Made by a program: the position numbers and the translations under genes
Notes under the pieces: model-generated
Told to the model about the DNA's origin: nothing
What the model saw: only the letters and a program-made list of their open reading frames with translations
Databases searched by the model: none
Shown here: positions 1-62,962 of the stretch, piece by piece
How the letters are laid out: the number at the start of each line of letters is the position of its first letter
Numbering within the stretch: the stretch's first letter is position 1
Assembly (NCBI GenBank): GCA_905178155.1
Contig: CAJINV010000015.1
Coordinates: 1,604,538-1,668,537 of the forward strand
DNA length: 64,000 bases
Source: Amoebophrya sp. A120
Lineage: Eukaryota > Protista > Dinoflagellata
Direction of reading: 5' to 3'

Positions 1-2364
1 GCACGACCCCAATCACTTCGAAATCTACAAGGGCCAGTATGAGAGTACACAACTCCCCCTCCCGCCCCTCATTTGTCATGCAGCACCCGACAACATCTAG
101 TCGCTGCCCTGTGGCACTGTTTCCATGACAAATTCCGGAAGCCCAAACAGTACTACATCAGGTATATCAATTTGTCATGCATATGCTCCACGTGTGCTGG
201 TGTTTGTATTGCTGTTCATGCCATACACATGAGGGGGACAGGGAGTTGTGCACTCTCATAGCCAGCCGCCGGGCTTGCCGCCCCCCTCCGGCGGCCCCCG
301 CCCGCAAACCGGCATGCACGCGGCCGGGGCGGTGGCAGGAGCTGGTGGAACCACTGCGGGCGGGCTTAAACCAGGCTTGCTCCCTGCGGGCATGTATCAA
401 CTGCAAAAATGTCTGGGTCTGGAAACTTGTAATGCTGCGTTGGGAATAGTGAATCAATGCTCTATAATGCGCAGGCAAGCATGAGAAATACAAATATCTG
501 CGCTTCTTTATGACAGGCAAAAGGGTCTGTTCTTGGACACGCATCACAAACTTTTTGGTCATGCCAGACAAGCATGACAAAATCTCAAATCTTCCAGACC
601 AAGACATTTTTGCATTTGATAGCATGGTCGCGGGACAACCGAATGATATCCGGAACGCGATCTCGGGCGCGGAGAAGGAACTGTCGACGAAGGTTTTGGC
701 CAGCATAATACCCGGCTTTGCCGGATCCACAGGGACTGCTGCAGGGACCAACGGGAAGACATTAAACGGGGGCGACCAGCAAGTGGCCCTAGACGAAGCG
801 GCACTGAATCCTCTGCTACTCGGGCAACAAATCCTGGTTAACGCAGCGGCGGTGGCGGCGACGAGTATAATAATGTGTTTTTGAGTGATCATCAACATCT
901 GTTTCTGTAGGAATGCTTGGTCAACATCCGCTCGTCTAGTTTGGGCTTAGGGTTTAGGGTCACCAGAAAAAGAATTTCAAATCACAAAGACACACATCAT
1001 CACCCCCACCAGGTACGGCCCAGTTGACCGGTGGGCACCTCGGGCTCGCGACCGCGCCCATGAAACTCACCGATTTGAACAACATCGACTGTGGCCAGCA
1101 GCGGTACGTTGGCATTGTGAAGTCGTTTGACAAGTTGAAGCAACTCGGCTACCTGCAGGCGGACGTTTTATCTAATCGCTTCATCGGTTACGACACCCCA
1201 CAGAAAATGGAAGTGGCGGTTATGAAAGAGGATTTCCAGCGGCTGAACCTGTACGCGGGCTGCATCGTTTCCTTCCAACTCGCGATATTCGCGCCGGACC
1301 ACAACGGCAGCTTCCGCGGCAAGGAAGAGCTGGAAGAAGCGGCGGCGGTTGGGAGTAGTGCTGGGTTGAAAAAACTGCCCTCGGTCATGGAGCTCGGCGG
1401 GGAGAAGAAACCAATCGTATAAATGAAGATGGATTCTCATTCTTTACTTACACGGCTTTTTTTTTTGATTTGGTGTCAAGCTCATGCACTGTATTTGAAC
1501 CGTTTGAAATTGTTGATGAGGTAAATCAATCACTACATTCGATTTCGAAAGACGTTGTGCAAGAAAAGCAGGAGTGCAAAATAGCATCAATTTCATCAAC
1601 CTCAACTTTTATTCCAGGCCGAACAAGTCGAGCTGGTCGACCCGATGTTGTTCGTCCCGGGCATGCCGAAGGTCGTAGCCAAGAAAAAAACGAAGAAGAA
1701 CCGGCAAGCCCTGGACGAACTGGAAAAAAACCTGCCAAACGCGATCGACTTGGCGCAGATTCTGAAAGACGTGGAAAACGTGGCGGAATTGGTTGAAAGC
1801 GAGCTCTTTGTCGTGGAAAAAGAAATTTTAACCCGGGACTTAAAGAACCTCGAGGAGCTGAAACGTGAAGAGCGAAGGTCGTTGAAGAGAATGAGGCGGG
1901 AACTGAAAGAAAAGGCGAGCAAAGATACAACTGGAGGCCGCGGCGGTGACAAGGACAAGAACAAAGGAGCTGCTGATGATGACGACAAGAGACGGAGTAG
2001 AAGCCGGTCCAGATCTAGGTCCAGATCCGACAGATCGAGGAGCAGTCGGAGTCGTAGCCGACGACGGCCGCGCAGTAAAGATCGACGGCGGAGGAACAAC
2101 AGTGGAAATAAACGAAGCGCCAGTCGCGACCGGCGCGGGGGTCCCCGGCCGCCAAGAAGAGACGGAACGAATTATTCGAGGAGTAGGAGTGCAAAACGAG
2201 ATGGGGATAGGAAGAACAGCAGGAGTAGAAGAGACCGCGACAACACGAGAGACCGGGGCGGGGGGAGAGGGAGAAGGGATAGTCGAGGCGGGGGTGGGAG
2301 CCGGAGGAGTCGAGGAAGAGGCAGGAGAAGGTCAAGGTCCAGATCGAAATCGAGAAGGAGGTAG
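1..2364 (+). CDS. 5'-partial cold-shock-domain-like protein with Arg/Ser-rich C-terminus (RNA-binding, SR-like)
   Basis: Spliced model: introners 38-260 and 395-621; GT-AG introns 865-1012 and 1417-1617. RYVGIVKSFDKLKQLGYL resembles the CSD N-terminal strands; RS-rich tail; stop at 2364. Confidence 0.65.
38..260. mobile_element. Introner family C (TIR TAT..GTGCACAACTCCCCC)
   Basis: TIR; TSD GCCAG. Confidence 0.85.
395..621. mobile_element. Introner family A (TIR TAT..TGCAAAAATGTCTGGGTCTGGAA)
   Basis: TIR; TSD GCATG. Confidence 0.9.
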
Positions 2365-2969
2365 GAACGAGAATTTGGCCTCGCTGTGAGGTAGAATCCT
2401 CGTCAATTGCTGCACCTGCTCCACATCATCGCTAATCGCAAGCTTGATGATTGAAACAAGGCCGTCAGTAACGTAAACGAGCGACATTGGTGTACCATAC
2501 TGTAGTCTTGTATTGCGAATGCACAAGCACAACGAAAAAATCATCACTCAACAAGCGCGGCGGCAATGAAGCGCACCACAACAATCTGAAAAACAGTGTT
2601 CGAACTTATGCGGGGGTGGAATTCAACAACAAGCAGAGAAGTTCGTGTACCAACGGAGAAGAAAGATCTACAACTGCACAAGGTCTACTTTTTCTGTTCC
2701 AGGATCGTTCACCAATCATGTGAAACAGGTTTAAGAAATAAAAGTGTTTCCGTGTCCAAAAAGCTTGTCAACAGTAAAAGCAGTTGTGTAGGTTCGACTG
2801 AAGTAGAAGCTGTACACCTCAGTTATGCTTTCTATGTGCCAACATTACAACTCCATCCAACAAGTATCTCGCCCCACAACAAAAAACAATCGATAGGTAT
2901 CGGCTCTGCTGTAGAAAAACAATTGTGGTCCTCCATATCTCTAACTCCAACTAAGCCTTGTGTTTGTCG

Positions 2970-5900
2970 ATGCTTTCAGTCAGTGCAAGTCGCAGAGCAT
3001 TGACTTCTGCTGGTGTTTTCTCTAGAAGTACTGTAGTGCGACAACCAGCAATACGATTGGTAAGGCAATTCTCCAAGAAAGATTCGTTATCCTTGCCTCG
3101 ATCATTTACGACAAATTTTTCCGCTAAAGTAAAAACTACACCGATTCATCGTAGAAACTACACGCTCAGCATTCCACCTCGTTATCACACATTATTAGCC
3201 TCACGATCCTTCCTTACCACTACCAGAGCCCCTGTTCTGACCAACAAGATGGCTCCCGCTGCACCCGAAGACGGCGCGGAAACCGCCGCTCTGCCGAGTT
3301 CTTTCACCGAGGAGGAAATGAAGGAGGATCCCTACCTCTACCTCGAAGAGGTGGAATCGGAAAAAGCGCTGAATTGGGTGATATGCATTGCAAATATGTT
3401 TGGGTCGGGAAGAATGCGTGTTCGTCATGCTTGTCTGGCATGATTCGAGAATCTGTGTTGCATAGACACGAAAAGGCCCTCTTACCTGTCATGCAAAAAC
3501 GAAGTTTGCCATGCGGAATACGTAAGTCATGGCAGCCAAAAAATTTGTCGTGCATAGCTGCGTATTGCAGTGCGTCTATCATTCACTTTTAGCATTACAA
3601 GTTTACAGACCCAGACATGTTTGCACTTGATAGGTGAAAGAGCAGAACAAAATCACTTTGGACAAGGTGGTTTCCATATCAAATGTAAAAATGTCTGGGT
3701 CTGGAAGAATGCAAGTTGTGATGCTGCATTTGGATTCCAAAAAAATCTGTATTGCATGAGCAGCAAAGGGAATGCAATTTTTTCTACGCGGAGAGGGAAT
3801 TTGTCATGCGGAATAGGCATCGCGAAGCCCTCAAAAAATCTGTGATGCTAGGGCATGCATCACAGACATCATGGCCAATGCAAAACATGCATGACAAGTC
3901 TCAGAATCTTCCAGACCCAGACATTTTTACATTTGATATTCCAAAACTGCTGCTGCTTCAAGCAACAAGTACACCAAAATCGTGATTGAGGACACGGAAG
4001 AATACAAGCGGTCCCTGCAGATCCTCGACTCCAAGGACAAAATAGCCCACGTGCGGAAAATTGGCTCGTATTACTACAACTTCTGGCGCGACGAGAAACA
4101 TGTGAAAGGGATCTGGCGGCGGACGAGTTTTTCTGAATACGGGGGCATATGGATTGCAAATATGTCTGGGTCTGGAAACTTGTGATGCTAAAATGTGCAT
4201 GATGAAAACACTTCCGAATGCAGTCCGGCACGACAACTTCCCAAAACGCTTTTTCATAGGCAATCCACATGAGAAACTGCGTTTTTGCATGACAAAAGAG
4301 GCTGCGACTTTTGTTAATTATGCAATACAGATTTTCTAGGTATGGAAAGCTAGCATTACAAGTTGCAACCTTCCAGACCCAGACATTTTTACAATCCATA
4401 GGGCAAGCAGGACCCGGAAAGCGTCGAGTGGGAAACGGTGCTGGATTTGGACGAGCTCAGCAAGAAGGAAGACAAGTCCTGGGTGTGGTCGGGGTACAGT
4501 TTGCTGCCGGAATTGGGGTTGATGGAACAAGATTCTGGTAGTACCACTGAAGTAGAGAATGCTGAGCAAAAACGTCCCCACCCCATAGTCAAGATGGAGA
4601 TTTTGCAACACAAACCTAGAAGTTTTGCGAGTCACGCATGACAAGTTGCAGGCTGTATTGTAGTGCAGTCTAGCAAGGATATCCGCATAACAAATCCATT
4701 TCCTCATCCTGTTTACAGCATTACAAGTTCCAAAACACGACAGAAAGTGCCTCACTTGGGGATGCGCATCACAAATGCCCCTGTACTTGCTAATCTGCAT
4801 GACAACTATAGAGTGGGGACGTTTTTGCTTAGGATATAGAGAAAAAAGACGTCATCGCGCTGCTCAAGCTCTCCCCCGGCGGGTCTGACGCGGTGGTTGT
4901 TCGGGAGTTTTCCCTGACAAAAAAGCAATTTTTGTCCGAAGACAAAACACGAGACAGCGCGTTCACGGTGGAAGAGAACAAAACGCAGATCTCCTACCTG
5001 GACCGCGACACGGTTTATCAACTGTAAAAATGTCTGGGTCTGGAAGAATACAACTTGTCATGCTAAATCTGAATGATGCAAAAATCTGTGTTGCGTGAGT
5101 ACCAAAAGCTGTCCACTGTTGACCAAGTTGAGAGGGAGTTTCTCATGCAGGAGAGGCATGATAGAGACCTCAGAGAATCTGTCATGCTAGGTCCTGCATT
5201 CCAGACCTCATGGGTCATGGAAAAGCTGCATGACAAGTCGCGCATTCTTCCAGACCCAGACATTTTTACACTTGATACGGTTTTTCTCGGCACGAAGTTT
5301 GAAAACGAGGAGTTCAACGGGCTAACCGACTCGTATAGCGTTCTCAACTGTTACATTCTCAACTGTTACATGGATTTGTGATGCAAGAATGGCAAAAGTC
5401 AAAGTAGGGAGGTTGCACCTGTAGCATTCCAAATTCCGCACAGATGTAGGTGCTGTTTAGCCTTTCCAAAATTTGTCATGCAGAGTAGCTTTATCTTGTG
5501 AATATTGATGTTTGTTTTGCATTACAAATCATGTAACAGTTGAGAATGTAACAGTTGAGAGCGCCATAACTCGGGATACCCCAGGATGGTGAAAATTTGG
5601 GCCCGGGGGAAAGAGAAAACGCAGTTAAAAACGATTTTCGACGGGAATAAACAGGATGTCGCGTCCGGCGGCCACGCGTATAGCTGGACACGGGTGGATG
5701 AGAAAACGCAGAAGAAAATCACGACCATCTACGATTCCATCGGCCAGTCGAAAACGTTTTACACCCGCGACCACTACATCAAAAATGGGTATTGGGAATT
5801 CGTCTACGACGAGAATAATTCTTCATCCAACGCAGATGTTACCCTTTCTTCCATCCGTAACACAGATTTGACCGATACATCTGTTTGCAAGAAATTCTAC

Positions 5901-8900
5901 CCGGACACGGAACCCGATAAGCTGATCCGATTGTCTGGCGTTCCCGACTCCGCGGACGTTTCTGTTTACCAGGACTACGCGGTGATTTCTCTGAGGAAAG
6001 ATTGGGGAGATAGTACAGACAAGGAAAACGCGGACTTCTTCTACCCGGGGGGATCGCTTCTTGTCGTACCGTTGAAAAAGTTGATCGATGTCGCCGGGGA
6101 GGTTTTGCCGACGTTCAAAGCGGACTCGCTTCCCGAAGTGACCGAGGAGAATGATTATTACAAAGAGAACTTTGTGAACAACGGGAAGACTTTACAGCTC
6201 CGGAAGATGTGCAAAATGCTGTTCAAGGGGGGAGTCGAGGGCGAAGCGCTGCAGGACACGTGCGAAACCAAGGACTACTTGATCATCCACAAGACCGTGA
6301 ATTTGAAGCCGGAGCTGGAATTTTGGAAGAAAGGAAATAATGACGGAACACCGAGCGGAGATTGGGTTTTGGACACCAGTGAAAAGACGAACTTTTTGAA
6401 GACCACAGGCGGAGCTGGGAAACATGACGCCGCGGACGAGAACATTTTTGAGTCGATTTCGCTCCGTTCGGTTGATTGGGACATGAGTTCGGATGATCTC
6501 TGGTTTACCTCCGAGTCCTTTTCCCGACCGGAACAGCTTTTTTACATTGACACCAAATCTACCACAACCTCCTATGGCGTTCTCAAACGTTACATTCTCA
6601 ACTGTTACATGGATTTGTAATGCAGGAACAGCAACAATCAAAGTGGCAAGACTGGAGCTTTCGCATTACAGACTTTCCACAGATTATCATGCTATTTAGC
6701 CCTTCGAAAATTTGTCATGCTAAGCACCTTGAGCAAGTGGAGGGCAATGGCAATTTTGCATGACAAATTCATGTAACAGTTGAGAATGTAACGTTTGAGA
6801 ACTCCATACCTCCACCGCGGAAAAGAAACTGTTGAAGTCCGCCCCGAAATTCTTCGACGACGATAAAGTCACGACGAGCCATATGGGAGTGTCAGAATCG
6901 AAATTGACAAAATCGGAAAACTTGTGATGCGCAAAATCGATGCCAGTTAGACCCACAGTTTGTAGTCGGCGCATGACAAATTCTCCTCGTCCTGGAAGCG
7001 AGTCTGTCATGCGGTTTAAGGCAAAAGAGCTGCCTTCTGTCATGCTAGTCAGCAGCCCAACACTTAACCCTTAAGTACCAGGACTACAATCCGCCTTCCT
7101 TGCATCCTCTGCAATAGAGTCGCTTTTTGCGTAGCATTTTGTGCATTACAGATCATTGCGATTTTGTCGATTTCGATCCTGACACTCCCATAAGCCAAAG
7201 ATGGGTCGTGTCGAAAGACGGCACCCGGGTGCCCTACTTTCTCGTCGGGAAAGACTTGACTAGTTCCTCCAAAAGCACCAAACCGCGCCCCACCTGTCTC
7301 TACGGCTATGGGGGGTTCGAGATATCCCTAACGCCCAGCTACATGGCGATCGCGGGTCAGCAGTGGATTGAGAAGGGAGGAATTTTTGCGCTGGCGAATA
7401 TCCGCGGTGGCGGGGAATTTGGGCCGCAGTGGCACCTATCCTCTGCAAAAGTATCGTACTCGTAGTAATTGTATGTAGTGAGGTCACCGAACGGTTCTAA
7501 CCGGGGAGTTTTTTTGCCACCTACCGTGAAAAACGACCGGCAGTTTTCAAGCGGCCGGAAGCGTTTTTTGACATAAAAGATTTTCAATTATCAAGCCTCC
7601 GGGGCTTTGAAGTCAAACAAGCCCGGTCGAAAACTATCGATTCGCACTGGATAAAACGACGCAGGGAAGCCGGCAAAAGGGGCGCCGTTCCGAGGCGCCC
7701 GCCGCCTTGGTTTCTGGCGATTTGGGGCGCCCAAAAAGGGGCGCGCAAAAAACGCGCCCAAAATCAGAACAGCGAAACAGCATGGCACGGCCGCGATTTC
7801 GGAGCATCTTGGGCGGCCGCGAAAGCGGCCGCCTTTTCGCCGGTTTTAGAGCCTGGGAAGCTTTGCAAAAAGCGCCGGCGTGAAAAATAAAAACGCGAAA
7901 AATAAAAAACGCCCCAGACGCGCAAACCCAATCCGCATGCTATGGGCCCGGTTTTTCTTCGCTTTTTGGGCGCCCCCCGTGGCACCCGGATCGGCCCCAT
8001 AGCATCGGGGCTGGCTTTCGGAAAGGAATTTGGGAAATGTGCCAAAATTTGTGATGTTTCCCAAGTGGCCGCCATACCGTGCGGCATAACGTTACTCACG
8101 GCGGTATGGCGAGCCCAGAAAAAACAAAGGCGTGGCCAAGGCGGCGGTCGGCAAAAAAACGCCCACGACCTCACTACCCCCGCCCCGGCGGCTATATTTG
8201 GTAAGTGCAGCCATGCATGACAAATGATCCAGCTTTCTACCCGAACACGCATGACAAATTCTTTTTCCGATAAATGTGTAATGCGATTTTCTCTTATCAT
8301 GATACTTTTGCAATGCATAGCACCAAGCCGCGTTGAAGGAAAACCGACCGAAGGCATACGAAGATTTCGAGGCGTGCGGAATGGACTTAATTTCCAGCGG
8401 AGTCACGACCAAGGAGATGCTCGGTACTTAGTTTCGTACGGCGCTCCGTTCCTGCTCGTGCAGTATCTCCTAGTTGTACACAGATCTCTTTTCATGTCAT
8501 GCAGTGTCAGCAACAGCATGGTAAGAAAAGCAAACAAATATGATGATGATGTCTTTCAGATGTATTACTCAATCGAACGGCCACCAACCCACCCCCAACG
8601 CCCTCACAGGTTGCATGGGCGGTTCCAACGGCGGGCTTTTAACCGGCAACATCTTCGTTCGCGGGGCCCAAAAACCCGAATTGATCTTCAGCGCCATTGT
8701 GTCCCAGTGCCCGCTACTCGACATGAAGCGGTTTCACAAACTCCTAGCCGGCGCGAGTTGGATGGCGGAGTACGGGAATCCGGACTTGGGCGAGTATGAG
8801 AAATTCATCAAAAATTTATGCACTGCAAAAGTATCGTAGTAGTATAAATCGCATGACAGATTTCCTCAGCATGAGAAATGGAATTTCTAATGCGCATCTG

Positions 8901-9866
8901 GCTCGAGAATGAAATTTGTAATGCATGAATGCGATTAGTACGAGTGCGATACTTTTGCACAGGATAAAACTACTCCCCGTACCAAATGATCGAAGCAATG
9001 GAAAAAGCAAAAACCCATTCCTATGCAAGAAAAAAACTGTGTGAGTGTAGGTGTCTTGGAGTTGTGACAGCATGACAAATTTGCTCTGCATGACAGAGAA
9101 AACCTGTCATGCAAACCGCAAAACAAACACATAACAAAAACAGGACTTCATGGCTGGCCAGGATGACAGGTGTATCTGTGTTGCATGCTTTGCATTGCAG
9201 ACTTGCAGCTACAGAGTTTTTTTCTTGGATAACTCCGCGATCCTCTTCACCACGTCCACCAAAGACGACCGCGTGCACCCGGGCCACGCGCGAAAGATGG
9301 TATCATTTGTAAAAACGTCCCCACCCCAGAGTTGTCATGCAACTGTGCAATGACAGCAACATTTGTAATGCGCAGCTCCATGAGAGGCATTTCCAATCGT
9401 GCTTTGGAATTTGTAATGCTGTACACAGGATGAGAAAGTGGCTTTCTAATGCGCCTTCCCTTGCCAACCAGCACTACATACACTGCAGAGGGAAGCTTGT
9501 CATGCACAGCTCCCAAAACTTGGTGACTTGTGTTGCTAGCTTTCCAACTTGACTATGGGGTGGGGACGTTTTTGCTTAGGATAGATGGTGAAACGGATCC
9601 AGGACATGCTGGAGCTCCCGAATGAAGGGGCCGCCGACATTGTCCGCTACTACGAAAACATCGAGGGCGGCCACGCGGGGGCGGCGGACAACAAGCAAAG
9701 AGCGTTCATGAAAACCCTGGAGTGGCTGTTTCTGTGGGAAAAACTTTCTGGCGGTCGTGGGGGAAAGGGCGGTAGTCGTAGTGTGTCGCCGTCGAAGAAG
9801 TCGCGCGGGTGCTGCGTGCCGGGGCCTAGTGACTCGTCTCCGCGGGAAGAAAACTCCTGCTTGTAA
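2970..9866 (+). CDS. Prolyl oligopeptidase (peptidase S9A), possible mitochondrial presequence
   Basis: After removing 12 introners and GT-AG intron 8424-8609: DPYLYLE, LSPGGSDAVVVREF, SGYPR, YGYGGF, NIRGGGEFG, GGSNGGLL (catalytic Ser), DDRVHPGH (Asp), EGGHAG (His). Confidence 0.95.
3382..3632. mobile_element. Introner family A
   Basis: TIR; TSD GGTGA. Confidence 0.9.
3677..3938. mobile_element. Introner family A
   Basis: TIR; TSD TTCCA; no GT/AG available at the junction. Confidence 0.9.
4148..4400. mobile_element. Introner family A
   Basis: TIR; TSD GGGCA. Confidence 0.9.
4558..4836. mobile_element. Introner family D (TIR ..AAAAACGTCCCCAC)
   Basis: TIR; TSD TAGAG; left end AA instead of TA. 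Confidence 0.85.
5016..5277. mobile_element. Introner family A
   Basis: TIR; TSD CGGTT. Confidence 0.9.
5334..5568. mobile_element. Introner family E (TIR ..CTCAACTGTTACATTCTCAACTGTTACA)
   Basis: TIR; TSD ACTCG. Confidence 0.9.
6573..6808. mobile_element. Introner family E
   Basis: TIR; TSD CCTCC. Confidence 0.9.
6882..7192. mobile_element. Introner family F (TIR TATGG..GTGTCAG..GAAAT.GACAAA)
   Basis: TIR; TSD AGCCA. Confidence 0.9.
7437..8319. mobile_element. Introner family B (TIR TAT..TGCAAAAGTATC) with nested insertion
   Basis: TIR; TSD GCACC; 883 bp. Confidence 0.85.
7475..8177. mobile_element. Nested MITE-like GC-rich insertion
   Basis: Inverted ends GTAGTGAGGTC / GACCTCACTAC; lacks the introner internal motif. 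Confidence 0.55.
8817..8966. mobile_element. Introner family B
   Basis: TIR; TSD AAATT/AAACT. Confidence 0.85.
9022..9231. mobile_element. Introner family H (TIR TAT..AAGAAAAAAACT)
   Basis: TIR; TSD ATTCC/ACTCC. Confidence 0.85.
9301..9583. mobile_element. Introner family D
   Basis: TIR; TSD GATGG. Confidence 0.9.
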
Positions 9867-10923: not shown

Positions 10924-13900
10924 ATGGCGCGTCGTCCTACTCTGTCCGTCCGAGGAGCACTCGGGGCCGCTACCGCAGCGCTTCTGCATCTCAGTTGTTG
11001 TGCCCCAGTCCCAGAGCACCCGGCACTACTTGTTGCAGCCGTCCAAGTAAAAAGGTCTTTCGACCGTCTCCTGGGGCCGCGACAGCCGCTAGACGCCACC
11101 TCGCACCGAAAGCTTGCCGCTGACAAGAAGAACGAGTTTGTTGTCACAGATCTGAAATCACGCCTCCTTGCGGAAGCGTGTTTTGGTAGCGAAGAGGCAG
11201 CAAAATTGCCGCACAAGTATGAGCCGGCGAAAAAAGACGAGCCATTGCTGGACTTGGTGAAAGGCGGGAAGATATGGATTGTAAAAATGTCTGGGTCTGG
11301 AAGAATGCAAGCTTTGTGATGCAGGTTTTCCATGACCCATGAGGTCTGGAATGCGAGGCCCAGCATCACAGATTCTTGGGGGTCTCTATCATGCCTTTCC
11401 TGCATGAGAGACTCCCTCTCAACTTGTTCAAAAGCGGACAGCTTTTGGTACTCACGCAACACAGATTTTTGCATCATTCAGATTTAGCATGACAAGTTCT
11501 AATCTTCCAGACCCAGACATTTTTGCATTTGATAGAAGAAAGACGGATCAAGTTGTACCACAGCATCTGCAAAGCCGCTTGTCTTGCGGGACAGCACCAA
11601 TGTGCGTGCGGGCAAGATGAACACATCGACTGGTGTCAACAACTCGTCCCCTTTTGGCTTCTCCACCGAACAAGCAGGTGCAACTTCTTCTACTTCTAGA
11701 GCCCCGTTTCTGCTGAACCAGACGCGCGACGCGGAAGAGTTCAGGACCCTGCGTCGAGACATTCACAAAAAGGAAAACCAGTTGGCAAATCCGGTGAAAG
11801 TCCTCGACCCGAGCACAAAACTCTCCGCGCTGGTGGTGGAGGACAGAAGTACTACAACTGCGGGTAGTAGTTCTTCATCTTCTAGAAGAAGTAGAAGTAC
11901 TAGTACAACAGCTGCAAAAGAAAACACCCTCGTCAAAAAGTACGGCCAGATTACGGACAGTTGCGCCTGCGTGCTGGCTATCACATGCAAATATGTCTGG
12001 GGCTGGGAACTTGTAATGCTGAATGGTCATGATTAAGTGCGGCTTTAAGTGCAGTGCAGCATGACAAAGTTTTCAGTCGCTTTCTCATGCGCAGCACGCA
12101 TTACAAAGACAAACTGCGACTTTGCGTGACGAACATGTGGCGCTTTTGCTGCTTGTGCAATACAGATTTTGAGGGCATGCGAAACACGCAATACAGGCTC
12201 AACCTGTTCGGACCCAGACACATTTGCAATGCATACTGGCCCAAGCCCTCCAGGACGAGATTCAGGTGGTGAATTTGGCGCGCGCAACGGACCTAAAGAC
12301 CTACCGCATGAGCAGCTCAAACAACACCTTTGCGCGCGAGGGTGGGGCCCAGGGTGAGAGCTTCTTCGGGGGACACGACCTCGAGCACGAGGTACTTTAC
12401 ACCGCGGTTTGCTTGCCTAAGTCCGATGCGACGATCGCGCAAGACCACAAGAGTGGGAAGCCAAGTGCTGATAGTGATGAAGAACTTCCAGACTTTGTCC
12501 ACGCTATGCCTTACGTGGCCGCCGGAGCGACGTACTTCAAAATAAACCCCCGAACGGGGCTGATTGCCGAGGACTGCGTGCCGACGCACGGTGTCGAAAT
12601 CTGGCAGTTGGAATCCGAGGATGGCAGTAGACCACGGCTTATCAAATGCAAAAAGGTCTGGGTCTGGAAGGATTCGAATTTGTGATGCGAAGTCTACATC
12701 ATGATAAAATCTGTCATGCATCATGGCTAGCAATAAAAAGCCTCACTTCTTGTTTCCGAGGGAGAGGATTTGTCATGCGGATTAGGCATTGGAATAAGTG
12801 CTTAAAATCTGTGATGCTAGAGCTTGCATGCCAGACGATCTGGGTCAGGCAAAAACTGCATGACAGATCTCGCATTCTTCCACACCCAGACATTTTTGCA
12901 ATCCATACGGCTGCTGCGACGATTGCCCTCTTCCGGGGGGATATCGCAAGGAAAAATCCCCCCTCCCCATATTGAAGAGGTAGGTTTTCGAAAATTTGTG
13001 TTGCTGATTTGAGGTCACAAATTACGTTTGTGTTGCAAGAAGACAAGGGCAACAGCTTCCGTCCCATTATGGAGGCGGATTGTCATGCTGTTGAGCCAAC
13101 ATCACGGACCCTTGTCATGCTAAACGCCTAAGTCAAAACCTCTCCGCTCAGGCTTGATATGGGTCTGCAGTCCTCTCCAGCAATACAGATGCGATCTGTG
13201 TACTCAAATACAGCAACACAGATTCCGCTTGCGATATGGGGAGGGGGGATTTTTCCTCACAATAGGGGATGGTCCGGTGTTTGGACTGGCACGAGTCTAT
13301 GCTGACCGCCGGCCGAGAGGACGGCACGGTCTCCGTCCACGACATCCGAGACCGGGATTCGTTGATGACCATCATCCCCATCTGCAAGCCTCTCGAAGGG
13401 GGGAAAACCAAGATGGAAACAGGGTTTGACAAGAAGCTGCACCCGGAAAACGACCCGATCACCCGCTTTGGCGGGCGCAAGCCCGCGTTTACCGATCACC
13501 GCGACCCGGAGGCCTTTCACCGCCGTGACTCGACCGGCCGGCAACCGCCGGTCCCGCACAACGCGGGTCTCCTGGCAGTCGGCACCGAGTTATGAAAGTG
13601 CACAATTCCCCCCCCCCCCTCATTTGTATAGAATGAACGGCAATACAAGCATCAGCAAGAATGCCGGTTTTGCATGACAAATTTCCACTGGATCTTAGTG
13701 CTATTCGGGCTACCAGAACTTGTCATGCAAACAGTGCCAAGAAGCAAAGGGTGGACTGGGTATTTCGCATGACAAATGAGGGGGAGGGGGAGTTGTGCAA
13801 TGTCATACCAGTCCGGGAAGGTTTGCGTTTTGGACATGCGGAACGTGATAGACGTGACCAAAAACCCCGAGGTCTACTCGACGCAGAGATATGCTGAGGA

Positions 13901-16337
13901 AAAACGTGGCCCACACCCCATAGTCAAGCTGGGAAATCTGCAAGACAAATCAACAAGCTTTTGCTGTTGCGCATGACAATTTTGGGGACGTAGTGTAGTC
14001 CTGTTTAGCTAGTGTGACCGCATCACAAATCTAGCATATCATGCTGATCGGAGCATTACAAATTTCAAAACACGACTAGGAACTGCTTCTCGTGGGGCTC
14101 CGCATGAGAAACATTTTGAGCATGCAGATTTGCATAACAGCTCTTGGCTGGGGACGTTTTTACGCAGGATAAGAGACTCGAGGGATTTACGTCTCCCGTC
14201 ACCGCGCTCACCTGGGGCGCCAACGAGAACGGCACGACCCTGGCCGCGGGAGATTTGAACGGTATGAAATGCAAAAATGTCTGGGTCTGGAAAGTTCCCA
14301 GGTTTGTCATGCATATTTTGCATAACCCATGAAGCCTGTAATGCATGACCTAGCATCACAGATTTTGAAAGGGCCTTCTGATGCGTATTCCGCATGAGAA
14401 ACGCACACTCCACGGAGCACAAACTGAACTCCTCTTGCTGGCCATGCAATACAGTTTTTTTTATACCTTCCAAAGACAGCATCACAAGTTGCAACCTTGC
14501 AGACCCAGACATTTTTGCATTTCATAAGCGGGCGGGTGAAGCTACTGCATCCGTTGGGTAAATCGAGTTGGTCGTTTTCCGACAGCGCTCCGGACAGTGG
14601 TTCTTGCACTGCTACCAATGCTATCAAATGCAAAATAAATGTCTCGGTCTGGAAGATTGCAAGGTTTGTCATGCTAGTCTGGCATGACTCTGAACTCTGC
14701 ATTGCGTGGCCGCGAAGAGCTCCTCCTCCCTGTCATGCAAAAACGGAGTTTATCATGCGGAATACGCAACTCAGAACCATGAAAAAAACTTGTCATGCTT
14801 GGCAGCGCATTACAGTGAGCACACTATTCCCTTCCTTGCATCACAAGTTTCCAGACCCAGACATTCTTGCAATCCATAAATGCCTCGACTCGCGCGGAAG
14901 AGGTAATTGGTACGGGAATTGGGGAAAACAAGCCGATCACCGGCCTGCAATTTTGCAACTTTCAGGACGGCGCCACGCGGAACGGGCACTATGAACTGCA
15001 AAAGTATCGTACTCGTATATATAAATGCATTACAAATTTCCGGAACATGAGAATATAAAATTTGTAATGCGGACTTGCCTCAAGAAAAAAATTAAAATTT
15101 GTAATGCAAGACTTGCATTTATACGAGTCACCACTTTTGCAATGCATAGGCTCCTGGCGGTGGCGACGCTGGGCGGCGGCACCCGAATTCACGACTTGGA
15201 AAAGGCTGCTGTTGATGCTGGAACAACTGCTCGCGCAAGAAGAGCTAGTAGTAGTACCTCCAGTACGGGTCCTCGTCCTTCAGGAACAACTACGCCGGCC
15301 TCATCAAGTCAAGAAAATACAACAACTCGTGGAAGCAGTAGCGGAAATCCGCGAAGTTCCTATCCAGTATCCTACACTTTAGGTGAGTCCACCAAGGAGA
15401 TACTCGACCAAAAGGGCGACGGTTCCCATGACAAGTCTCACGATTGGGACAAGCGACAGGTCTTCGGCCTGCAGAAGATTGTCGGGACGGATGCTGCCGA
15501 CGTATCCTCCCCCCAGCCCTACCTGGTCGCGCTGGCGCACGACGTATCAAATGCAAAAATGTCTGGGTCTGGAAGATTGCAACTTGTCATGCTGTCTTCG
15601 GATTCGAAAAAAATCTGTAATGCATGACCGGCGAGAGGAGTCCAGTTTTTGCCACGGCGAGAGGCCATTTCTCATGCGGAACAGGCATCAGGAAGCCCTC
15701 TCAAAGTCTGTGATGCTAGACCATGCATCACAGACCGCATGAGTCATGGAAAACCTGCATGACACTCTTCCAGACCCAGACACTTTTACATTTGATACGA
15801 CGGCATTGACGACCCGACGCAGTTGCGTTCGTACGGCAATCCCTACGTAGCGGACCACATTTATGGATGTGTCAGGATTGAAATCGTCAAAGTTGAAATA
15901 GTTAGTCATGCATAAACTCGATACCAGTTGGAAGCCCAATTTTCAAGCGGCGCATGACAAATTTCGGCACCGTCTAAATTCAGTTTGTCATGCTGTTTAG
16001 GGACAGAAGGCGTCTTTTGTCATGCTACTTTGTTTAGCAGCTCTACCGCAGACCCCAAACAGGCTGACAGTCGGCCTCACTTGCCATCCCTGCAAGAGAG
16101 GCACTTCATGCCTTGCAATTTATGCATGAGAAATTTTTTCAACTTTGTCGATTTCAATCCTGACACATCCATAACATTCATGAGTCGCTGGGCCTGTACC
16201 CTACCACCCCCACGCGGCCGCGGAAACGGTCAAGGGTCACTGGATCTGGTGCTCGGGGTAGTGCTAGCAGGAGCGCCTTTACACCATCCATGCGTACTAA
16301 TTATAGTACTCTGCCCCGCCGGGGGCTTAGGCTTTAG
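10924..16337 (+). CDS. WD40-repeat protein
   Basis: 11 introners removed. WD-like blades VRCLDWHESMLTAGREDGTVSVHDIR, VTALTWG..TLAAGDL.GRVKL, ITGLQF..LLAVATLGGGTRIHDL; hydrophobic N-terminus. Confidence 0.7.
11273..11534. mobile_element. Introner family A
   Basis: TSD GAAGA; reverse-complement relative of 5016-5277. Confidence 0.9.
11979..12235. mobile_element. Introner family A
   Basis: TIR; TSD CTGGC. Confidence 0.85.
12640..12907. mobile_element. Introner family A
   Basis: TIR; TSD CGGCT. Confidence 0.9.
12942..13264. mobile_element. Introner family G (TIR ..AAAAATCCCCCTCCCCATAT)
   Basis: TIR; TSD GGGGA. Confidence 0.9.
13591..13807. mobile_element. Introner family C
   Basis: TIR; TSD CGAGT/CCAGT. 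Confidence 0.85.
13890..14171. mobile_element. Introner family D
   Basis: TIR; TSD AGAGA. Confidence 0.85.
14263..14526. mobile_element. Introner family A
   Basis: TIR; TSD AACGG/AGCGG. Confidence 0.85.
14622..14878. mobile_element. Introner family A
   Basis: TIR; TSD AATGC. Confidence 0.9.
14990..15148. mobile_element. Introner family B
   Basis: TIR; TSD GGCAC/GGCTC. Confidence 0.85.
15545..15797. mobile_element. Introner family A
   Basis: TIR; TSD CGACG. Confidence 0.9.
15862..16173. mobile_element. Introner family F
   Basis: TIR; TSD ACATT. Confidence 0.9.
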
Positions 16338-33900: not shown

Positions 33901-33959
33901 CGGTGGTCTTTTTAGAACGGTATGTCCAGGGGGAAAAAAATGTCGTGCGGCTCGTGTAG
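30924..33959 (+). CDS. Hypothetical coiled-coil plus transmembrane protein (paralog B)
   Basis: Continuous frame after excising 5 introners; collinear motif similarity to the gene at 17725. Confidence 0.7.
31530..31738. mobile_element. Introner family H
   Basis: TIR; TSD CGTAT. Confidence 0.85.
31885..32212. mobile_element. Introner family G
   Basis: TIR; TSD TCTAC. Confidence 0.9.
32228..32550. mobile_element. Introner family G
   Basis: TIR; TSD CGTGT; right end TG. Confidence 0.85.
32643..32817. mobile_element. Introner family B
   Basis: TIR; TSD TTGGT. Confidence 0.9.
33427..33734. mobile_element. Introner family F
   Basis: TIR; TSD GCGCA. Confidence 0.9.
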
Positions 33960-35648
33960 TGACAGTGAGATTGTTCATGACAGCGTGTATTGTAACGATC
34001 CAACAAGATGAGCAACAGCAATCTTGTAAAGAGATCCTCGGAAAGAGATGTTGTAAGTACTACTCCTGCGAATGTAGTGATTGTCATGCATGCAGCTCGG
34101 AGGTAAGACGAAATAACTAAGATATAGATCATCATCCGAAATGGAGCGACTCCAAAAAAGACTCGCTACACTTCTGGGCCGCGGCGGTTCCTTTTTCCCT
34201 TGGATACACCGGTGTTTATCTGCACGAAGTATTTGGTGGGAAAACATTTGTTTTTCTTTCATCCCGGCAACATGTTTTGATTTCGACGAGCACTAATATA
34301 CGGGTGCTGATTTTTATAAAATCGTTTAGAAAAAGACCTGCGAGGAGGCCCGTCGTCCCATGTTGCAAGCCTGAACGTGTGGAGTTTGTGAAACATCGAC
34401 TCGAGAAACTGCTCTGGAGGGAAGCACAGCTCGGGCTCATCTAGAAGTACTGAAGTTCAGTACGTGCCCTTCAAGGTTTTGTTCGCGAACAAAGGCACTG
34501 CAACTGGCTGTAGAGGTGCCGGTAGATGAAGTTGTCTTCTGGCTTGTACCAAGTTTTTTTTGCAACATCCAACGACGAATATGTATTTTGATTTTCGGTT
34601 TCCATTTGCTTTTATTCTCGTAATATGAGGCCGACTCTGTCTCTGAGGACAATGAATACAACTTGGATCGGTTTTAGTTACGACGTCTCTAACATCATAT
34701 CATCGGTCCGGCTTGTTCCAAGCTTTCGTAGTCGTGCGCCTTTTGGTCCTCCTCGTCCACAGAAGTGTATCGTCATCGTGGATCTCTCGTCGTACGAAGG
34801 AGCATGGTTTTAATCATTCAGTCGGTCACCGTCACGGTATTGGAAGAAACGCTTGAATAAACCCAATATCGGCCCTAACGTCGCCACTTGATGGCCATTT
34901 TCGCGCACTAGGTGAGCACAAAACTGCCGCGCGAAATATTTACGATTCCTCTTTTGTTTCCGCAATCGTCCGGGCTCCTGTGGAGCCGAAGGTGGTTGCG
35001 TACATAGATTCATTGTCGTGACAACATAGCGTCATTGCGTCGCCTTCCGGAAAGGAACGTTTCCTGCATATAACTCCCTTTCCTCGATGTCGCTTATGAT
35101 CTTTGATGCCTCTTTGTTCTTCATTCCAACAGCCTCACAGCATCACCCCTATGTGGCTTCGCTTTTGATGCACCTCCCCCCCGGTGCGAAAAGCATAATT
35201 AAGTAGAGCAATCACAACTGTAGCATAACTTCTCTCGACCCCATAAGACAAAAACGACCGCAATTTTACTTTCAGACTCAAGAAACTCTTTTTTTTTACG
35301 CTTACGCCCCAAGACCGCTACTCCAGTATTTTATTTCTCCAACCTCTATGTACAGTAACAAAAACAATTTTTTTTCCTTTTTGAACTAACTTAAAATATA
35401 CTTTTTCGATTTCGTACGACACCAAGACACAAACTTTTTCGACAACTATCGAGAACGTGCTGAAGTTCCAAAAACAAAAAGAAGCTTTTCAAATGCACCA
35501 TCCACAGTATATCGCAGACGCCGCAGTCTTCTAGCATTTTCATTTTCTACTTTTTAACACCTACTATTTTTTATTCCTTTCACGAAGAAATCACATCAGT
35601 CGCAGAAGGCAAGAACTAGAACCAGCTTCAGAACTGCCACCGAGGACC

Positions 35649-55400: not shown

Positions 55401-58400
55401 TAGATCCGGACGCTAAGTCAGTGGTTTCCGGTGTCGTGTCGTCCTCTTTGTCGTCCGGTAATATAGGTCATCTGGATCAGCTATGACAGTGCACAACTCC
55501 CCCTCCCCCTCATTTGTCATGCAAAATACCCATTGCAACCTTTGTGTTTGTCTCTTGGCACTGTTTGCATGACAAGTTCTGGTAGCCCAAATAGCACTAC
55601 ACTCCAGTGCAAACTTGTGATGCAAAACCGGCACTCTCACTGATGCTTGTATTGCCATTCATGCTATACAAATGAGGGGGAGGGGGAGTTGTGCACTGTC
55701 ATATCAACACCTTCCGCATTCAAAACTGAACCGCCCCTCGCCGCCCCCAGCTGCGGCGCTTTTCAAGAAAGGATCATTGACGGAAATCATCGAAAATCAG
55801 AATGCTTTGCAGAAAAGCGCACGAGCCAGGTCACTGAGCCCGACGATTAGTGGGGTGACGTCTGTGACGAGCGGCACAACTGCAACTGGAACAGCTGGAG
55901 CGGAAATGTTAAACAAAAACACGACCACAACTGGCAACCAGCTCTCCACTCAGCAACTTCAGCTGCCGATTCACCAAACACCGAAAGCACCAGCGAAGAA
56001 GCTGTCCGAAATTTTGCTCGAGAAAAACTGGACTCCCGGAGTGGGTGTCGCAGCAACTGGAAATAACGGTGGAGAGAAGACTTCTACCGGAACAGCAAAT
56101 GCAAATGGAACATCATCTACCACTTCAACCGGAGCTGGTAATCCCAGCAATGTGAAACAAGTCGTCGCGTCGAGTTCTTCCACGACGGCGCAAAACCTGA
56201 TCCGACTTCAAAACAGCACAGGTTCCGGCTCCTCTGCGGAAGAGGAAGAGAAACTCAACGAGTTACCGATGGGACTGAAATTCGGATCGGAATTCGCGAA
56301 GAAATCGTCCGTATCAATTGCAAATATGTCTGGGTCTGGAAGGTGGCAACTTGTCATGGTAAATCTGAAGCATGCAAAAATCTGTGTTGCGTGAGTGCCA
56401 AAAGCTGTCCACTTTTGTTTTTGACCAAGATGGAGGAAGGGAGTTTTTCATGCAGGATAGGCAAGGCAGTGGCAGAGACCTCGCAGAGTCTGTCATGCTA
56501 AGTTCCGCATTCCAGACCTCATGGGTCATGGAAAATCTGCATGGTATCTGGAAAATCTGCATGACAAGCTTAGTTACACTTTTCCAGACCCAGACATTTT
56601 TGCACTTGATAGTCCGCAATCCACTTGTATAGTCAGCACTGGCGGTATCGCCAGAAAAAACTGTTTCACTGTAAACTTGTAATGCAGAAATTGCATCTCA
56701 CAAGTGTTTGTCTTGCTACACATGCAAGACAGTGGATTTTTAGCTGTGTTTTCCCTTAGGAACCTTGCATGGCAAATTTTCTCTGTCATGCAGAACAAAC
56801 TTGTGATGCAAAACCTGCAAAATCCTTACAGTGAAACACTTTTTTCGTACGATAGGCGGGGACGGGAGAAAGTTTTGAAGAACCACTACAACAGTACTAG
56901 TGGTTCTGCGAATCATTCCCATTCCTGTTCCAACAATAATTCTATCAAATGCAAAAATGTCTGGGTCTGGAAACTTGTGATGCTGGGCGGCGTCTCATGA
57001 GGAGACCACAAGTGCTGGCTCAGCATGACAAGTTTGTGACCTTCTAGGTGTTGCCTATTCTGCATGACAAACTGCGTCTCTGCATGACAGAAAAATGGAG
57101 CTCTTGGGTAACGTGCATGACAGATATAAGAGTCATGCCAGACAAGCATGACAAACATCCACTCTTCCAGACCCAGACATTTTTGCATTTGATAAATTCC
57201 GTCCAGGAACCAAACACTCCCTCGATGGAAAACAACTCGCTCATTTCCCATATGCCATTCTCAAACGTTACATTCTCAACGGTTACATATTTTGTCATGC
57301 AAAATGCCTATAAAGCCGCCAGACCATCGAGCTGCTTCGCACGACAAAAAATTCTCGCTCGAAGGGCTAAACAGCATCTGAATCTGTGCCAAATTTGTGA
57401 TGCGAGACTTGCAAGCTCGCCCCTTTCCCTATTGCTTTTTTTGCATGACAAGTCTCTCGGTAGAGATCGCTTTGCCCGTGCTTATTCCACTCAGAGTTTG
57501 CTGGGTAGGTGGCTACCGTTTTAAGTTTATAAACGAATGGGACGCCCTGCCCTTAGCCTTCCAACATGACAAATCCTTGTTGTAGCAGTTGAGAATGTAA
57601 CGCTTGAGAATACCATATCCCATTCGATGAAAACCACCTCCCACTCTTTAGCCCCTTCCTTCGTCGCCCAGCCCAACAGCAAGGGGAATGTGGTGCAGTT
57701 CGGCACGCACATTTCCTTCTACCAACGAAGCGTGTCCGAGGATAGGTCCTTGACCAGCAGTGTGTCGGATAATTACCCAGATTCGATGCTGAACTCCCCC
57801 ATGTCCAGCATGTTCCGACGCAGCTTGTCACCGGGGACGAGGTTTTTTGCAACAAATTCTCTGGTTTCCCCCTACGCGCGGCAGAGCAGGAATTTAGGGA
57901 AGGGCACAGCTAGTAATATGCGGAATCAACAGCGGATGTTTCTCTTGCGGCCGGTGAAGCAAGAATTGATATTGGATGAGAACAGCACTAGTTGTGCGGG
58001 TCTTGTCTCGTCTGGGGGTGCAGGAGGTGCGGGAAGTACTAGTGGTGCAAGTGGTCTTCATGCTGTCGTGAACAACGCTATGCCCACGTCGGTACACAGT
58101 GCGCAGGTTGAGAAAATGAAAAACCAGCAACGGGAGTCGAGTGTGGGAAATAGTGGTGGTGCCGTGCGGGATCAGAGTGTTCCTGGGAAGAATCATCTTG
58201 GAACAAATGCGAATGCGAACAAATCCAGATCTCCCTCTCCGGATAACAAACAGAAATTTGTTTTACGCCCGAACGGAGTAGTCCTCTTCCCGACGACACA
58301 AAACAACAGCTCAGGAGAGCAGGGAGTTCTTCCGTTAGAAGGGATGTCAGCGCCAACGTCTGTGATGCAGGGTGCGAAAGTGATCGTGCCACCGGTGAAT

Positions 58401-61060: not shown

Positions 61061-62962
61061 ATGTTGTCCCTCACCGAGCTGAATTCCGGACTCCAGTTCT
61101 GGATGGACAGTTGCGAGCACAAGAATCACTGGGGCTGGCTTGTCTTCCACTACGCCATACTCGTGGGCGCGTCGCAACCAAGTCCGATCTGCGTGGTGTT
61201 AGCCGCGGTGATATGCGGCATCTCCGATGAGCAGTGGAAGACCTACGCGTTTGACTATTTTCATTTAGACGACAAGGACTTCGGGGTGCCCATGCTCTAC
61301 TGTGTCTGGGTGCCGTTGATGGTGGCCGTGACGTACTGGATAAACGGGGGCTTTCTGCTCGCGTTGGACTGGTCCAGGCCAGAGGTACAAATACTTCTGT
61401 GGTGTGATTGAATACGTTTACCACTTTATTTCTTCAGTTTGTCATGCGCAGGGACATTTTTTATTCCCTCTGCTGATGACAGTTCCGCATGGCAAATCTA
61501 CATCAAAAAATTCCATCAGGTTCTCCAGGGGTTTCGCCTCCAAGCGTCCAACAAGTTGACGAAGGAAAAAATCCGCAAGTTGGTCCGGAATATCGCGATA
61601 AACATCTTCCTCGTGCTGCCCTTCATCGGGTTCCTCTTTCTAGTCCTCCAGCTGAAAACGCCATTAGGCTTGAAGCTCGAGCTATGGAAAGAAAAAAGTT
61701 TGTCACAGTCACTAACTTGCAGGTTTTGCATTACAAATTTTTTTAGCAGCACAGTTTTTCCTTGTATTGCAGAAACACTAGGGTAATCCCCTATGAAGCT
61801 TGGCTGTCATGCATTTTTACGCATGACAGCCAATTTTGTATTGCAAAAATGCGCATGAGTGATCGTGACGCTCTTTTTCTGTTTGATACGAGCCAACACT
61901 CCCGAGCTACATGAGCAGAGCCGTGCACACGTTTATCTCCGTGTTCTTCGTCAACGAGGTGCTGTTTTTCTACGGGCACTGGCTCTTTCACGCGAACAAG
62001 TGGCTTTACAAAAGTATTCTTGGCAGATTTTTTTTTCTTGTTTCCATCAAGTTCTATCTAAATCTAACTTCTTGGTTCTATTTCCTTTTCGTTTTCAGCA
62101 TGAGAAATTCACTTTGTTTTGCAAGAATGGCATGACAAATCAAACCACAGACATCCACAAGATCCACCACGAGTTCACCGCCCCGAACGCTTTCGCCGCG
62201 ATCTACTGCCACCCGATAGAACTTACGCAGTGCAAAAGTATCGTACTCGTACTGAAACTGATTGCGTTTGTGCATTACAGATCTTTTTCTCAATGCAAAT
62301 CCGCATTACAAATTCAATCTGTAATGCTAAGTCAATTTGTAATGCAATTTATACTTATTAGTACGATGCTTTTGCAATGCATAGAACTCATCGTCTCCGA
62401 CTTCATCCCCCTTGGGGTGGGCCCGCTGCTTCTCAACTCTCACGTCTACGTCTTCCTCTGTTGGGCGTTGTTCGCCGTGCTCGGAACGCAGACCCACCAC
62501 AGCGGGTTCAAGTGGCCGTGGGCGAAAGGGTGGGACCATCAGCCCGAGTTTCATGATCTACACCATGCGAAATTTAACGGAAACTACGGGAACATCGGGT
62601 TTTTGGACTGGCTGCACGGAACTACACTGCACTTGCCAGTAATACCGAAGACGGTGAAGGAGCCGGTAGACAATGCAGCTACGGGTTCTACATCTACTCC
62701 GGATGCAAGTACAATAGAAGGTGCTGCAGCTTCTATATCATCATCACCAACAGCGACAACAGGTCCTTCAACAACAGCCGCAAACACCGCGGAAGCTGCT
62801 GCAACATCAGCGAGAAGTAGAATAAAGCTCACAGAAATGACGATGAAGGATAGGAGTGGGGCAATGACCACGACGTCAGGCGCCGGGAGTAGAAGTTCGA
62901 GCATCAGCACAACCACGCCGGAAGATGGGATTAAAAGTTCAGCGACGGCTGCGGTGAAGTAG
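61061..62962 (+). CDS. Fatty acid hydroxylase / sterol desaturase family protein (FAXDC2-like)
   Basis: His boxes HWLFH, HKIHH, THH, HDLHH; NYG..GFLDWLHGT. Introns 61385-61520 and 62013-62149 (GT-AG) plus 2 introners. Frame is open upstream to about 60836, so the start is uncertain. Confidence 0.9.
61683..61888. mobile_element. Introner family H-like
   Basis: TIR; TSD CGAGC. Confidence 0.85.
62224..62383. mobile_element. Introner family B
   Basis: TIR; TSD GAACT. Confidence 0.9.

What the first reader, a model, noticed from the sequence alone, without database searches (positions are those of the whole stretch)
395..62383. One internal motif, TTGT(C/G/A)ATGC / GCAT(G/C/T)ACAA, is reiterated in all eight otherwise dissimilar families
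Seen: despite different TIRs and bodies, essentially every element has several copies in both orientations (TTGTCATGC, TTGTGATGC, TTGTAATGC, CTGTCATGC, GCATGACAA, GCATTACAA). The motif is rare in exons, canonical introns and intergenic DNA. It explains the recurring FVMQ/LSC/HDK/MTN words in spurious ORFs. Inference: it is a multivalent binding site for a common trans factor (transposase, or a dedicated excision/splicing protein or guide RNA), i.e. a shared cis code for the system.
Basis: partly seen in the sequence, partly recalled or inferred. Interest (0 to 1): 0.85.

Follow-up and report, generated by a model that had tools for sequence, protein, structure and literature searches.

The report
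Spaced DNA code inside parasite introners
The short jumping elements that serve as introns in the algal parasite Amoebophrya carry several copies of one conserved 9-13-base motif at regular 16/32-base spacing, likely a landing strip for a DNA-binding protein that would help them move.

Summary
Confirmed and extended. The window is Amoebophrya A120-type DNA (one exon is 100% identical to a protein named A120) and holds 67 introners with TAT ends and 5-bp target duplications, a published system. The strict motif has 153 hits: 150 in elements and 3 outside, all in GT-AG introns. That is a 109-fold enrichment; shuffles give 1.5. It is as conserved as the terminal repeats (0.82 vs 0.61 for the body, 9 of 9 groups), and its middle base varies among C/A/G but avoids T. 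New: sites follow a spacing grammar. Direct pairs sit 31-33 bp apart in 9 of 9 families and inverted pairs 16-17 or 46-50 apart, repeated in 109 held-out elements. Against RNA-level reading: facing sites do not covary, and a family with all strong sites on one strand is spliced in either orientation. Best reading (0.5): multivalent double-stranded-DNA binding sites for the transposition machinery, like subterminal repeats but shared across terminal-repeat families. Rival (0.22): a host DNA-bound mark for these introns. No binding protein was found. I did not find the motif in the papers I could search.

The parts
38..62383 (.). 67 TIR introners with 5-bp target duplication and TAT ends; 150 of the 153 strict motif hits lie in them
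27905..28156 (.). Family 8 example (26 copies, 227-312 bp); sites at 44+ 75+ 108+ 128+ 167+ 215- from the left end. Other starts: 395, 3382, 3677, 4148, 5016, 11273, 11979, 12640, 14263, 14622, 15545, 17801, 26546, 35881, 44311, 45711, 47394, 50124, 52214, 52578, 52994, 54788, 56312, 56943, 58488
8817..8966 (.). Family 7 example (about 150 bp); sites 38- 56- 72+ 103+. Other short members start at 14990, 27622, 28918, 32643, 49714, 51464, 58808, 59012, 62224
   Evidence: spliced
12942..13264 (.). Family 3 example (about 322 bp); three 32-33-bp direct pairs, 58+ 90+ 142+ 174+ 242- 275-. Others: 28250, 29347, 31885, 32228, 50460, 54019
   Evidence: spliced
9301..9583 (+). Family 10 copy with all six strong sites on the + strand; spliced
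4558..4836 (-). Family 10 copy in the opposite orientation, all six strong sites on the - strand, same host gene; spliced. Others: 13890 (all -, spliced), 27091
5334..5568 (.). Family 1 example (235 bp); sites 46+ 94- 143+ 189-. Others: 6573, 51164, 51715, 57251
   Evidence: spliced
15862..16173 (.). Family 4 example (312 bp); sites 45+ 94- 127+ 159+ 234- 266-. Others: 6882, 33427, 45334
   Evidence: spliced
55482..55703 (.). Family 2 example (222 bp); sites 36+ 89- 137+ 169+. Others: 38, 13591
56646..56854 (.). Family 5/6 example (about 209 bp); sites 35+ 66+ 82- 125- 141+ 159+. Others: 9022, 31530, 46008, 61683
33921..34206 (.). Single-copy TIR cluster 9 with only one matrix site
7437..8319 (.). 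883-bp element with family-7 ends and a probable nested insert (inner inverted repeat 7475/8177); no site in the first 600 bases; spliced whole
18265..26490 (.). 8.2-kb element with family-7 ends and a perfect 5-bp duplication; its 3 strict sites lie within about 100 bp of the ends; interior of tandem arrays; no Pfam hit in 9 of 51 ORFs tested; splicing not tested
61385..61519 (+). Candidate GT-AG intron with no called TIR, holding a +/- site pair 48 bp apart; matches the family-1 profile (E 0.0005)
   Evidence: intron inferred from sequence
62014..62150 (+). Candidate GT-AG intron with no called TIR, holding three sites 16 and 16 bp apart
   Evidence: intron inferred from sequence
46557..46714 (+). 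GT-AG intron of the Sec1 gene with three degenerate sites
   Evidence: gap in the match to P0001
50873..51075 (+). Candidate GT-AG intron with one strict and one weak site
   Evidence: intron inferred from sequence

Best explanation
The motif is a conserved, regularly spaced internal repeat of Amoebophrya A120-type introners and is likely a binding site on double-stranded DNA for one protein that would serve the transposition of all families. Shown: 3-7 copies per element inside the terminal repeats, at family-fixed positions, on a grid of about 16 bp (direct pairs 31-33 bp, inverted pairs 16-17 or 46-50 bp), under sequence-specific constraint. Also shown: the elements are cut out of RNA together with one copy of the 5-bp duplication. 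Inferred: several protomers of a transposase, or of a TnpA-like or host helper, load on these sites in helical register, bend or bridge the 150-330-bp element and bring the two TAT ends together. The family-specific inner TIR would set which end-binding activity acts, and the motif would be the common module. Splicing would rely mainly on the ends.
For: Held-out identity is 0.82 for the motif, 0.82 for the TIR and 0.61 for the body, with motif above body in 9 of 9 groups. The middle position changes freely among C/A/G, but only 2-6% of its changes go to T, against 25-46% in the body; outside sites TATG is only about half as common as AATG or GATG. Spacing of 31-33 bp makes up 86 of 167 adjacent same-strand gaps, in 9 of 9 families, and 93 of 208 in 109 held-out elements. 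In 12 non-redundant architectures 35 of 45 gaps lie within 2 of a multiple of 16, and both a 16-bp grid and a 10.5-bp helix beat 1000 of 1000 jittered sets. A weak inverted site sits at +16 inside direct pairs in 7 of 9 families. Strand use is even (181 +, 157 -), facing sites do not covary (33 of 86, against 0.37 expected), and family 10 is spliced with all strong sites on either strand. With sites and TIRs masked, only 1 of 78 family pairs is clearly related. Per-copy deviation in the motif (0.047; 0.054 in the window) is near the duplication mismatch rate (23 of 325 sites), which fits decay after insertion. Precedent: TnpA and BED-domain subterminal repeats (PMC2613891, PMC10368747, passages).
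Against: No protein was found. PMC7789003 (section 16) reports no putative transposase in A120 and argues against general transposase mobilisation. Known subterminal repeats diverge between families (PMC2613891), whereas this one is shared. Sites persist where no TIR is seen: 4 of 10 candidate GT-AG introns, and 29 strict hits in 109.8 kb outside element-like DNA in the related loci, where about 2.5 are expected by my arithmetic; several of these 29 lie in uncalled or cut elements. Across copies the motif decays with slope only 0.23 on the body, which also fits selection after insertion. Helical phase alone is weak in the window: 33 of 400 nulls reached it with one copy per family, and little remains without the 31-33 class. 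The 16-bp grid and the helix are confounded.
Confidence: 0.5

Rival explanations
1. The sites are read on DNA by a host protein that marks these introns in chromatin and recruits or licenses co-transcriptional splicing, whichever way the element is inserted. Elements keep the code because copies that lack it break their host gene.
For: All DNA-level evidence applies equally. One motif across many TIR families is simplest with one host factor. Sites survive, two sets in grid spacing (48; 16+16), in GT-AG introns without called TIRs. U1 snRNA and an A120 transposase were not detected in PMC7789003. The motif decays slowly across copies.
Against: Motif deviation is about equal to the duplication mismatch rate. 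The 883-bp element has no site within 600 bases of its 5' end yet is spliced. 6 of 10 candidate GT-AG introns have no site. I recall no precedent for such a mechanism.
Confidence: 0.22
2. The motif is read on the pre-mRNA by a splicing protein or a guide RNA.
For: The elements are spliced exactly (21 of 21 element junctions tabulated) without fixed splice dinucleotides. Weak inverted sites exist in most families, so either strand may offer some site.
Against: Family 10 copies with all strong sites on opposite strands are both spliced. No single base pairs with C, A and G but not U, so a guide does not explain the middle position. Rigid 16/32-bp spacing is not expected on single-stranded RNA. 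No Rfam RNA is in the window; small RNAs elsewhere were not searched.
Confidence: 0.1
3. The inverted copies serve as stems that fold the intron and bring its ends together.
For: 140 of 334 sites are predicted to pair in register with an opposite site; mean pairing probability is 0.76 against 0.56 for the body.
Against: Such pairing follows from the sequence alone. The middle bases of mirror pairs do not covary (33 of 86, expected 0.37). Family 10 has 0 of 23 paired sites and is spliced. Pairing would not need the same motif in every family.
Confidence: 0.05
4. The motif is a functionless relic: the families descend from one ancestor built from a duplicated 32-bp module.
For: The spacer of direct pairs shares a weak cross-family consensus. 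Some families with different TIRs share an architecture.
Against: The motif is conserved like the TIR while the spacers diverge, and T is avoided at one position. Masked bodies are mostly unalignable. Descent may explain the origin but not the upkeep.
Confidence: 0.07

Closest known systems
Amoebophrya A120 introner elements (Farhat et al. 2021, PMC7789003; Gozashti et al. 2025, PMC12130899)
   Same: Same organism by protein identity. TAT-N7-AAA terminal repeats, short direct repeats, about 240-bp non-canonical introns in many families, removed from RNA.
   Different: The passages, sections and supplement text I saw describe the ends only: no shared internal motif and no spacing rule. Here the duplication is a full 5 bp and excision is element + 5.
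CACTA (En/Spm, Tgm) subterminal repeats bound by TnpA-like proteins (PMC2613891, passages)
   Same: Many copies of a short motif in direct and inverted orientation inside the TIRs, acting as cis determinants in non-autonomous elements.
   Different: No CACTA ends; 5-bp rather than 3-bp duplication; the motif is shared across TIR families instead of diverging with them; no protein is known; the elements are introns.
hAT Hermes subterminal repeats bound by BED domains (PMC10368747, passages)
   Same: [quoted passage not shown]
   Different: The Hermes site is 4 bp and element-specific. Here it is 9-13 bp, fills the whole short element, and the duplication is 5 bp (hAT typically 8 bp, recalled).
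Sox-Oct composite element (recalled, from no call)
   Same: TTGT-N-ATGC core.
   Different: Animal transcription factors; probably coincidence. At most a hint that a bending domain plus a helix-turn-helix could read such a site. Not tested.

Membership tests
Amoebophrya A120 introner elements | Host genome is A120 or its near twin | tested here: met
   Sec1 exon 100% identical over 132 aa to a protein named Amoebophrya sp. A120; 83% and 77% to two other Amoebophrya
Amoebophrya A120 introner elements | Terminal inverted repeat beginning TAT, 7 variable bases, then a run of A | tested here: met
   442 ends: T99 A100 T98, then A 85-93% at positions 11-13. The finder asked for TAY ends, so the first three figures are partly built in; families 1 and 4 depart from the A run
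Amoebophrya A120 introner elements | Direct repeat of 3-5 nt at the exon border | tested here: met
   5-bp duplication, perfect in 46 of 65 window elements under 500 bp, one mismatch in 17
Amoebophrya A120 introner elements | Removed from RNA without GT-AG | tested here: met
   21 of 21 tabulated element junctions skip element + 5; one further row in run X10 gave + 4; 0 of 67 read GT..AG when cut at -1
Subterminal repeats of TIR transposons (CACTA TnpA, hAT BED type) | Multiple short copies in both orientations inside the TIRs at fixed positions | tested here: met
Subterminal repeats of TIR transposons (CACTA TnpA, hAT BED type) | Bound by the element's transposase or TnpA and needed for transposition | not testable with these tools
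   No autonomous element or protein found
Subterminal repeats of TIR transposons (CACTA TnpA, hAT BED type) | Motif specific to a family, diverging between families | tested here: not met
   Same motif in all 10 window clusters and in TIR types absent from the window
CACTA superfamily | CACTA ends and 3-bp duplication | tested here: not met
   TAT ends, 5-bp duplication
hAT superfamily | 8-bp duplication (recalled) | tested here: not met
   Excision length and flanks give 5 bp

The most novel reading that the evidence does not exclude
A120 defines tens of thousands of introns on the DNA, not on the RNA: a host protein bound in a 16/32-bp array inside each introner marks it for co-transcriptional removal in either orientation and stands in for the missing U1 snRNA, so the motif is a DNA-encoded splicing code that also licenses new insertions.
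Probability: 0.2. Interest if true: 0.92.

Novelty: new variant of a known kind. Interest (0 to 1): 0.62.

Why it matters
How A120 introners move without a detected transposase, and how they are spliced without U1 or fixed splice sites, is left open in PMC7789003. A shared, selected motif with a defined spacing rule gives a direct bait for the missing factor and a clean mutant control (middle base to T). It also shifts attention from RNA hairpins to double-stranded DNA. A single internal code across many terminal-repeat families departs from the usual family-specific subterminal repeats.

Tried and rejected
No whole genome was held, so there is no genome-wide count and no search for a transposase or DNA-binding candidate. 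No listed holder of the stretch was on record as RNA; raw-read runs X8 and X10 did cover two genes, while X9 gave only 380 reads, mostly 90-95% alike. Viral scan: 2 hits, both tandem repeats without element ends. Prokaryote scan: 66 hits, listed only and not examined. Metagenome scan (17 of 64 parts read): of 125 loci, 157 of the 158 elements called came from one assembly and the other was a spurious repeat; two other loci that I read were minisatellites. That assembly may be the same organism, so it adds loci, not a second species; A25 could not be tested. Using duplication mismatch as an age proxy did not separate old from young copies (body 0.097 vs 0.099). One homologous pair of loci (L013/L023) had an identical element inside a 450-bp identical block and was uninformative. 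A strict alternating 32-bp lattice did not beat its null (386 of 1000). No Rfam hit. No Pfam hit in 9 ORFs of the 8.2-kb element. A 5-hydroxymethyluracil link: the passages of PMC11572971 give only a TA/TC preference, no such motif. Earlier findings of this scan: none returned.
Full report
Observation. The strict motif occurs 153 times (83 +, 70 -). A scan for inverted ends with a 5-bp flanking duplication gave 60 candidates. I dropped one that lies in a tandem array and added 8 by coordinates, for 67 elements in 9 TIR clusters, 10 after splitting one by length. 147 hits lie in 66 short elements (8.5 per kb), 3 in an 8.2-kb element and 3 in 38.5 kb outside (0.08 per kb); shuffled elements give 1.46 on average. 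The three outside hits are in GT-AG introns. A weight matrix widens the motif to about AAW-YTSYVWTGC-D with 359 sites, 5.4 per element, and T at the middle position in 3 of 359.

What the elements are. A Sec1 exon is 100% identical to a protein named Amoebophrya sp. A120. The ends match the TAT-N7-AAA repeats described for A120 introners in PMC7789003 (abstract, passages, sections 12 and 16 in full, supplement text searched). RNA runs show excision of element + 5 bases at 21 of 21 element junctions tabulated, 9 and 12 (checked). 18 of these have raw-read support and 3 rest on contigs. For one of those 3 (element 4558), run X10 gave + 4 instead. Each call printed only its 15 best-supported joints. 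At 5 of 5 junctions with a mismatched duplication the RNA keeps the left copy, and every cut is compatible with position -1 or 0 before TAT. The system is therefore known; the question is the internal motif.

Constraint. Sites were labelled from one copy and identity was measured among the others: motif 0.82, TIR 0.82, body 0.61, with motif above body in 9 of 9 groups. The middle base is as variable as the body (0.62), but only 2-6% of its changes go to T, against 25-46% in the body. Outside sites TATG is about half as common as AATG or GATG (119 vs 265 and 218), too mild a depletion to explain this. With sites and TIRs masked, 1 of 78 family pairs is clearly related and 4 are borderline. The motif is thus maintained by selection on its sequence, not merely inherited with the body.

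Spacing. In the window 86 of 167 adjacent same-strand gaps are 31-33 bp, in 9 of 9 multi-site families. Of 102 opposite-strand gaps, 35 are 16-17 bp and 28 are 46-50 bp. A weak inverted site sits at +16 inside direct pairs in 7 of 9 families (mean score -12 vs -27 background). A pattern scan fetched 125 metagenome loci. Fifty loci of one assembly held 157 more elements, 156 with two or more sites, including TIR types absent from the window. After dropping elements that contain the search pattern, 93 of 208 same-strand gaps in 109 elements are 31-33 bp. One architecture per group (12 groups; 4 near-relatives left out) gives 45 gaps, 35 within 2 of a multiple of 16. A 16.3-bp grid (R 0.65) and a 10.5-bp helix with a 6-bp strand offset (R 0.59) each beat 1000 of 1000 jittered sets. 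Against a helical reading: with one window copy per family and a scanned period, 33 of 400 nulls reached the same-strand score, and little signal remains without the 31-33 class (11 of 1000 in the held-out set). The firm result is the 16/32/48 module; helical phase is suggestive. Families may share ancestry, so the gaps are not fully independent.

DNA or RNA. Sites are strand-neutral (181 +, 157 -). 140 of 334 are predicted to pair in register, but mirror pairs share the middle base in 33 of 86 cases, against 0.37 expected. Family 10 has no paired site; copies 4558 and 13890 (all -) and 9301 (all +) are all spliced. The 883-bp element has no site in its first 600 bases and is spliced whole. 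A 'not T' position fits a clash with the thymine methyl group in a protein-DNA contact (inference) and not guide pairing.

Transposition or host function. Private deviation at otherwise fixed columns is 0.047 in motif, 0.042 in inner TIR and 0.099 in body. Duplication mismatch is 23 of 325 sites in the window. This fits neutral decay after insertion with selection only on mobile lineages, but the duplication may itself be constrained and my finder favours matching flanks. On the other side, motif deviation rises with body deviation at slope only 0.23 (83 copies). Four of 10 candidate GT-AG introns keep sites, two of them in grid spacing (4 of the 10 introns are supported by RNA or by P0001). 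And 29 strict hits lie in 109.8 kb outside element-like DNA in 58 related loci, some in uncalled elements and some in intron-like DNA without TIRs. I give transposition 0.5 and a host mark 0.22.

Known systems. It works like the subterminal repeats of CACTA and hAT elements (PMC2613891 and PMC10368747, passages) but fails membership of either on ends and duplication length, and it is shared across TIR families. I did not find the motif described in PMC7789003 (figures, including Fig. S25, are not held), PMC12130899 (passages; 12 of 14 supplements searched; 22 of 58 A120 rows read), PMC12005148 or PMC11282704 (passages), or in the listings of nine searches (one search listed 25 of 506 papers, none with the motif strings). 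Roy et al. 2023 (Curr Biol), theses and subscription papers were not seen.

Verdict. A real, selected and apparently undescribed internal code in a known introner system: new variant of a known kind, interest 0.62. The mechanism is inferred; no binding protein is in hand.

Noticed in passing
element junctions 3376-16174; 46003-46233: RNA keeps the left duplication copy at 5 of 5 informative junctions, and P0001 reads the right copy's fifth base at element 46008, so the intron likely starts one base before TAT (N-TAT) and ends with four bases of the right duplication.
   Followed up: partly
8424, 45051, 46557, 47114, 50873, 61385, 62014: 7 of 10 candidate GT-AG introns begin GTAY, i.e. G plus the TAY that starts the introners: one donor signal N-UAY may serve both intron kinds, and some canonical introns may be old introners.
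   Followed up: partly
4552-4842: Contig runs give a 284-base skip (in frame by my reading); raw reads of X10 give 283 (141 reads). Strain difference in an A run, mapping artefact or shifted cut: unresolved.
   Followed up: no
18265-26490: 8.2-kb element with introner ends around a roughly 174-bp satellite (about 18.6-23.4 kb), a 21-44-bp array (24.3-25.3 kb) and 12-13-bp arrays in inverted arrangement; if spliced it is a very long introner.
   Followed up: partly
7475-8177: Probable nested high-copy insert with its own 11-bp inverted repeat and no evident duplication, inside a family-7 element.
   Followed up: partly
all element ends: TIR positions 5-9 vary freely, even between the two ends of one element, while 1-3 and 11 onward are fixed: a two-part end (tip, spacer, family-specific inner part). 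Target sites show no base preference.
   Followed up: partly
L074:1260-1410, L045:5335-5487: A TIR type absent from the window has the same length and site layout (38- 72+ 103+) as family 7, suggesting TIR swaps on a common body plan.
   Followed up: no
L013:901-1350 and L023: Two homologous contigs differ by about 4% but are identical over a 450-bp block holding an element: gene conversion or assembly collapse.
   Followed up: partly
36516-37615: 1.1-kb candidate GT-AG intron with no motif site and internal inverted-repeat-like stretches; not examined.
   Followed up: no
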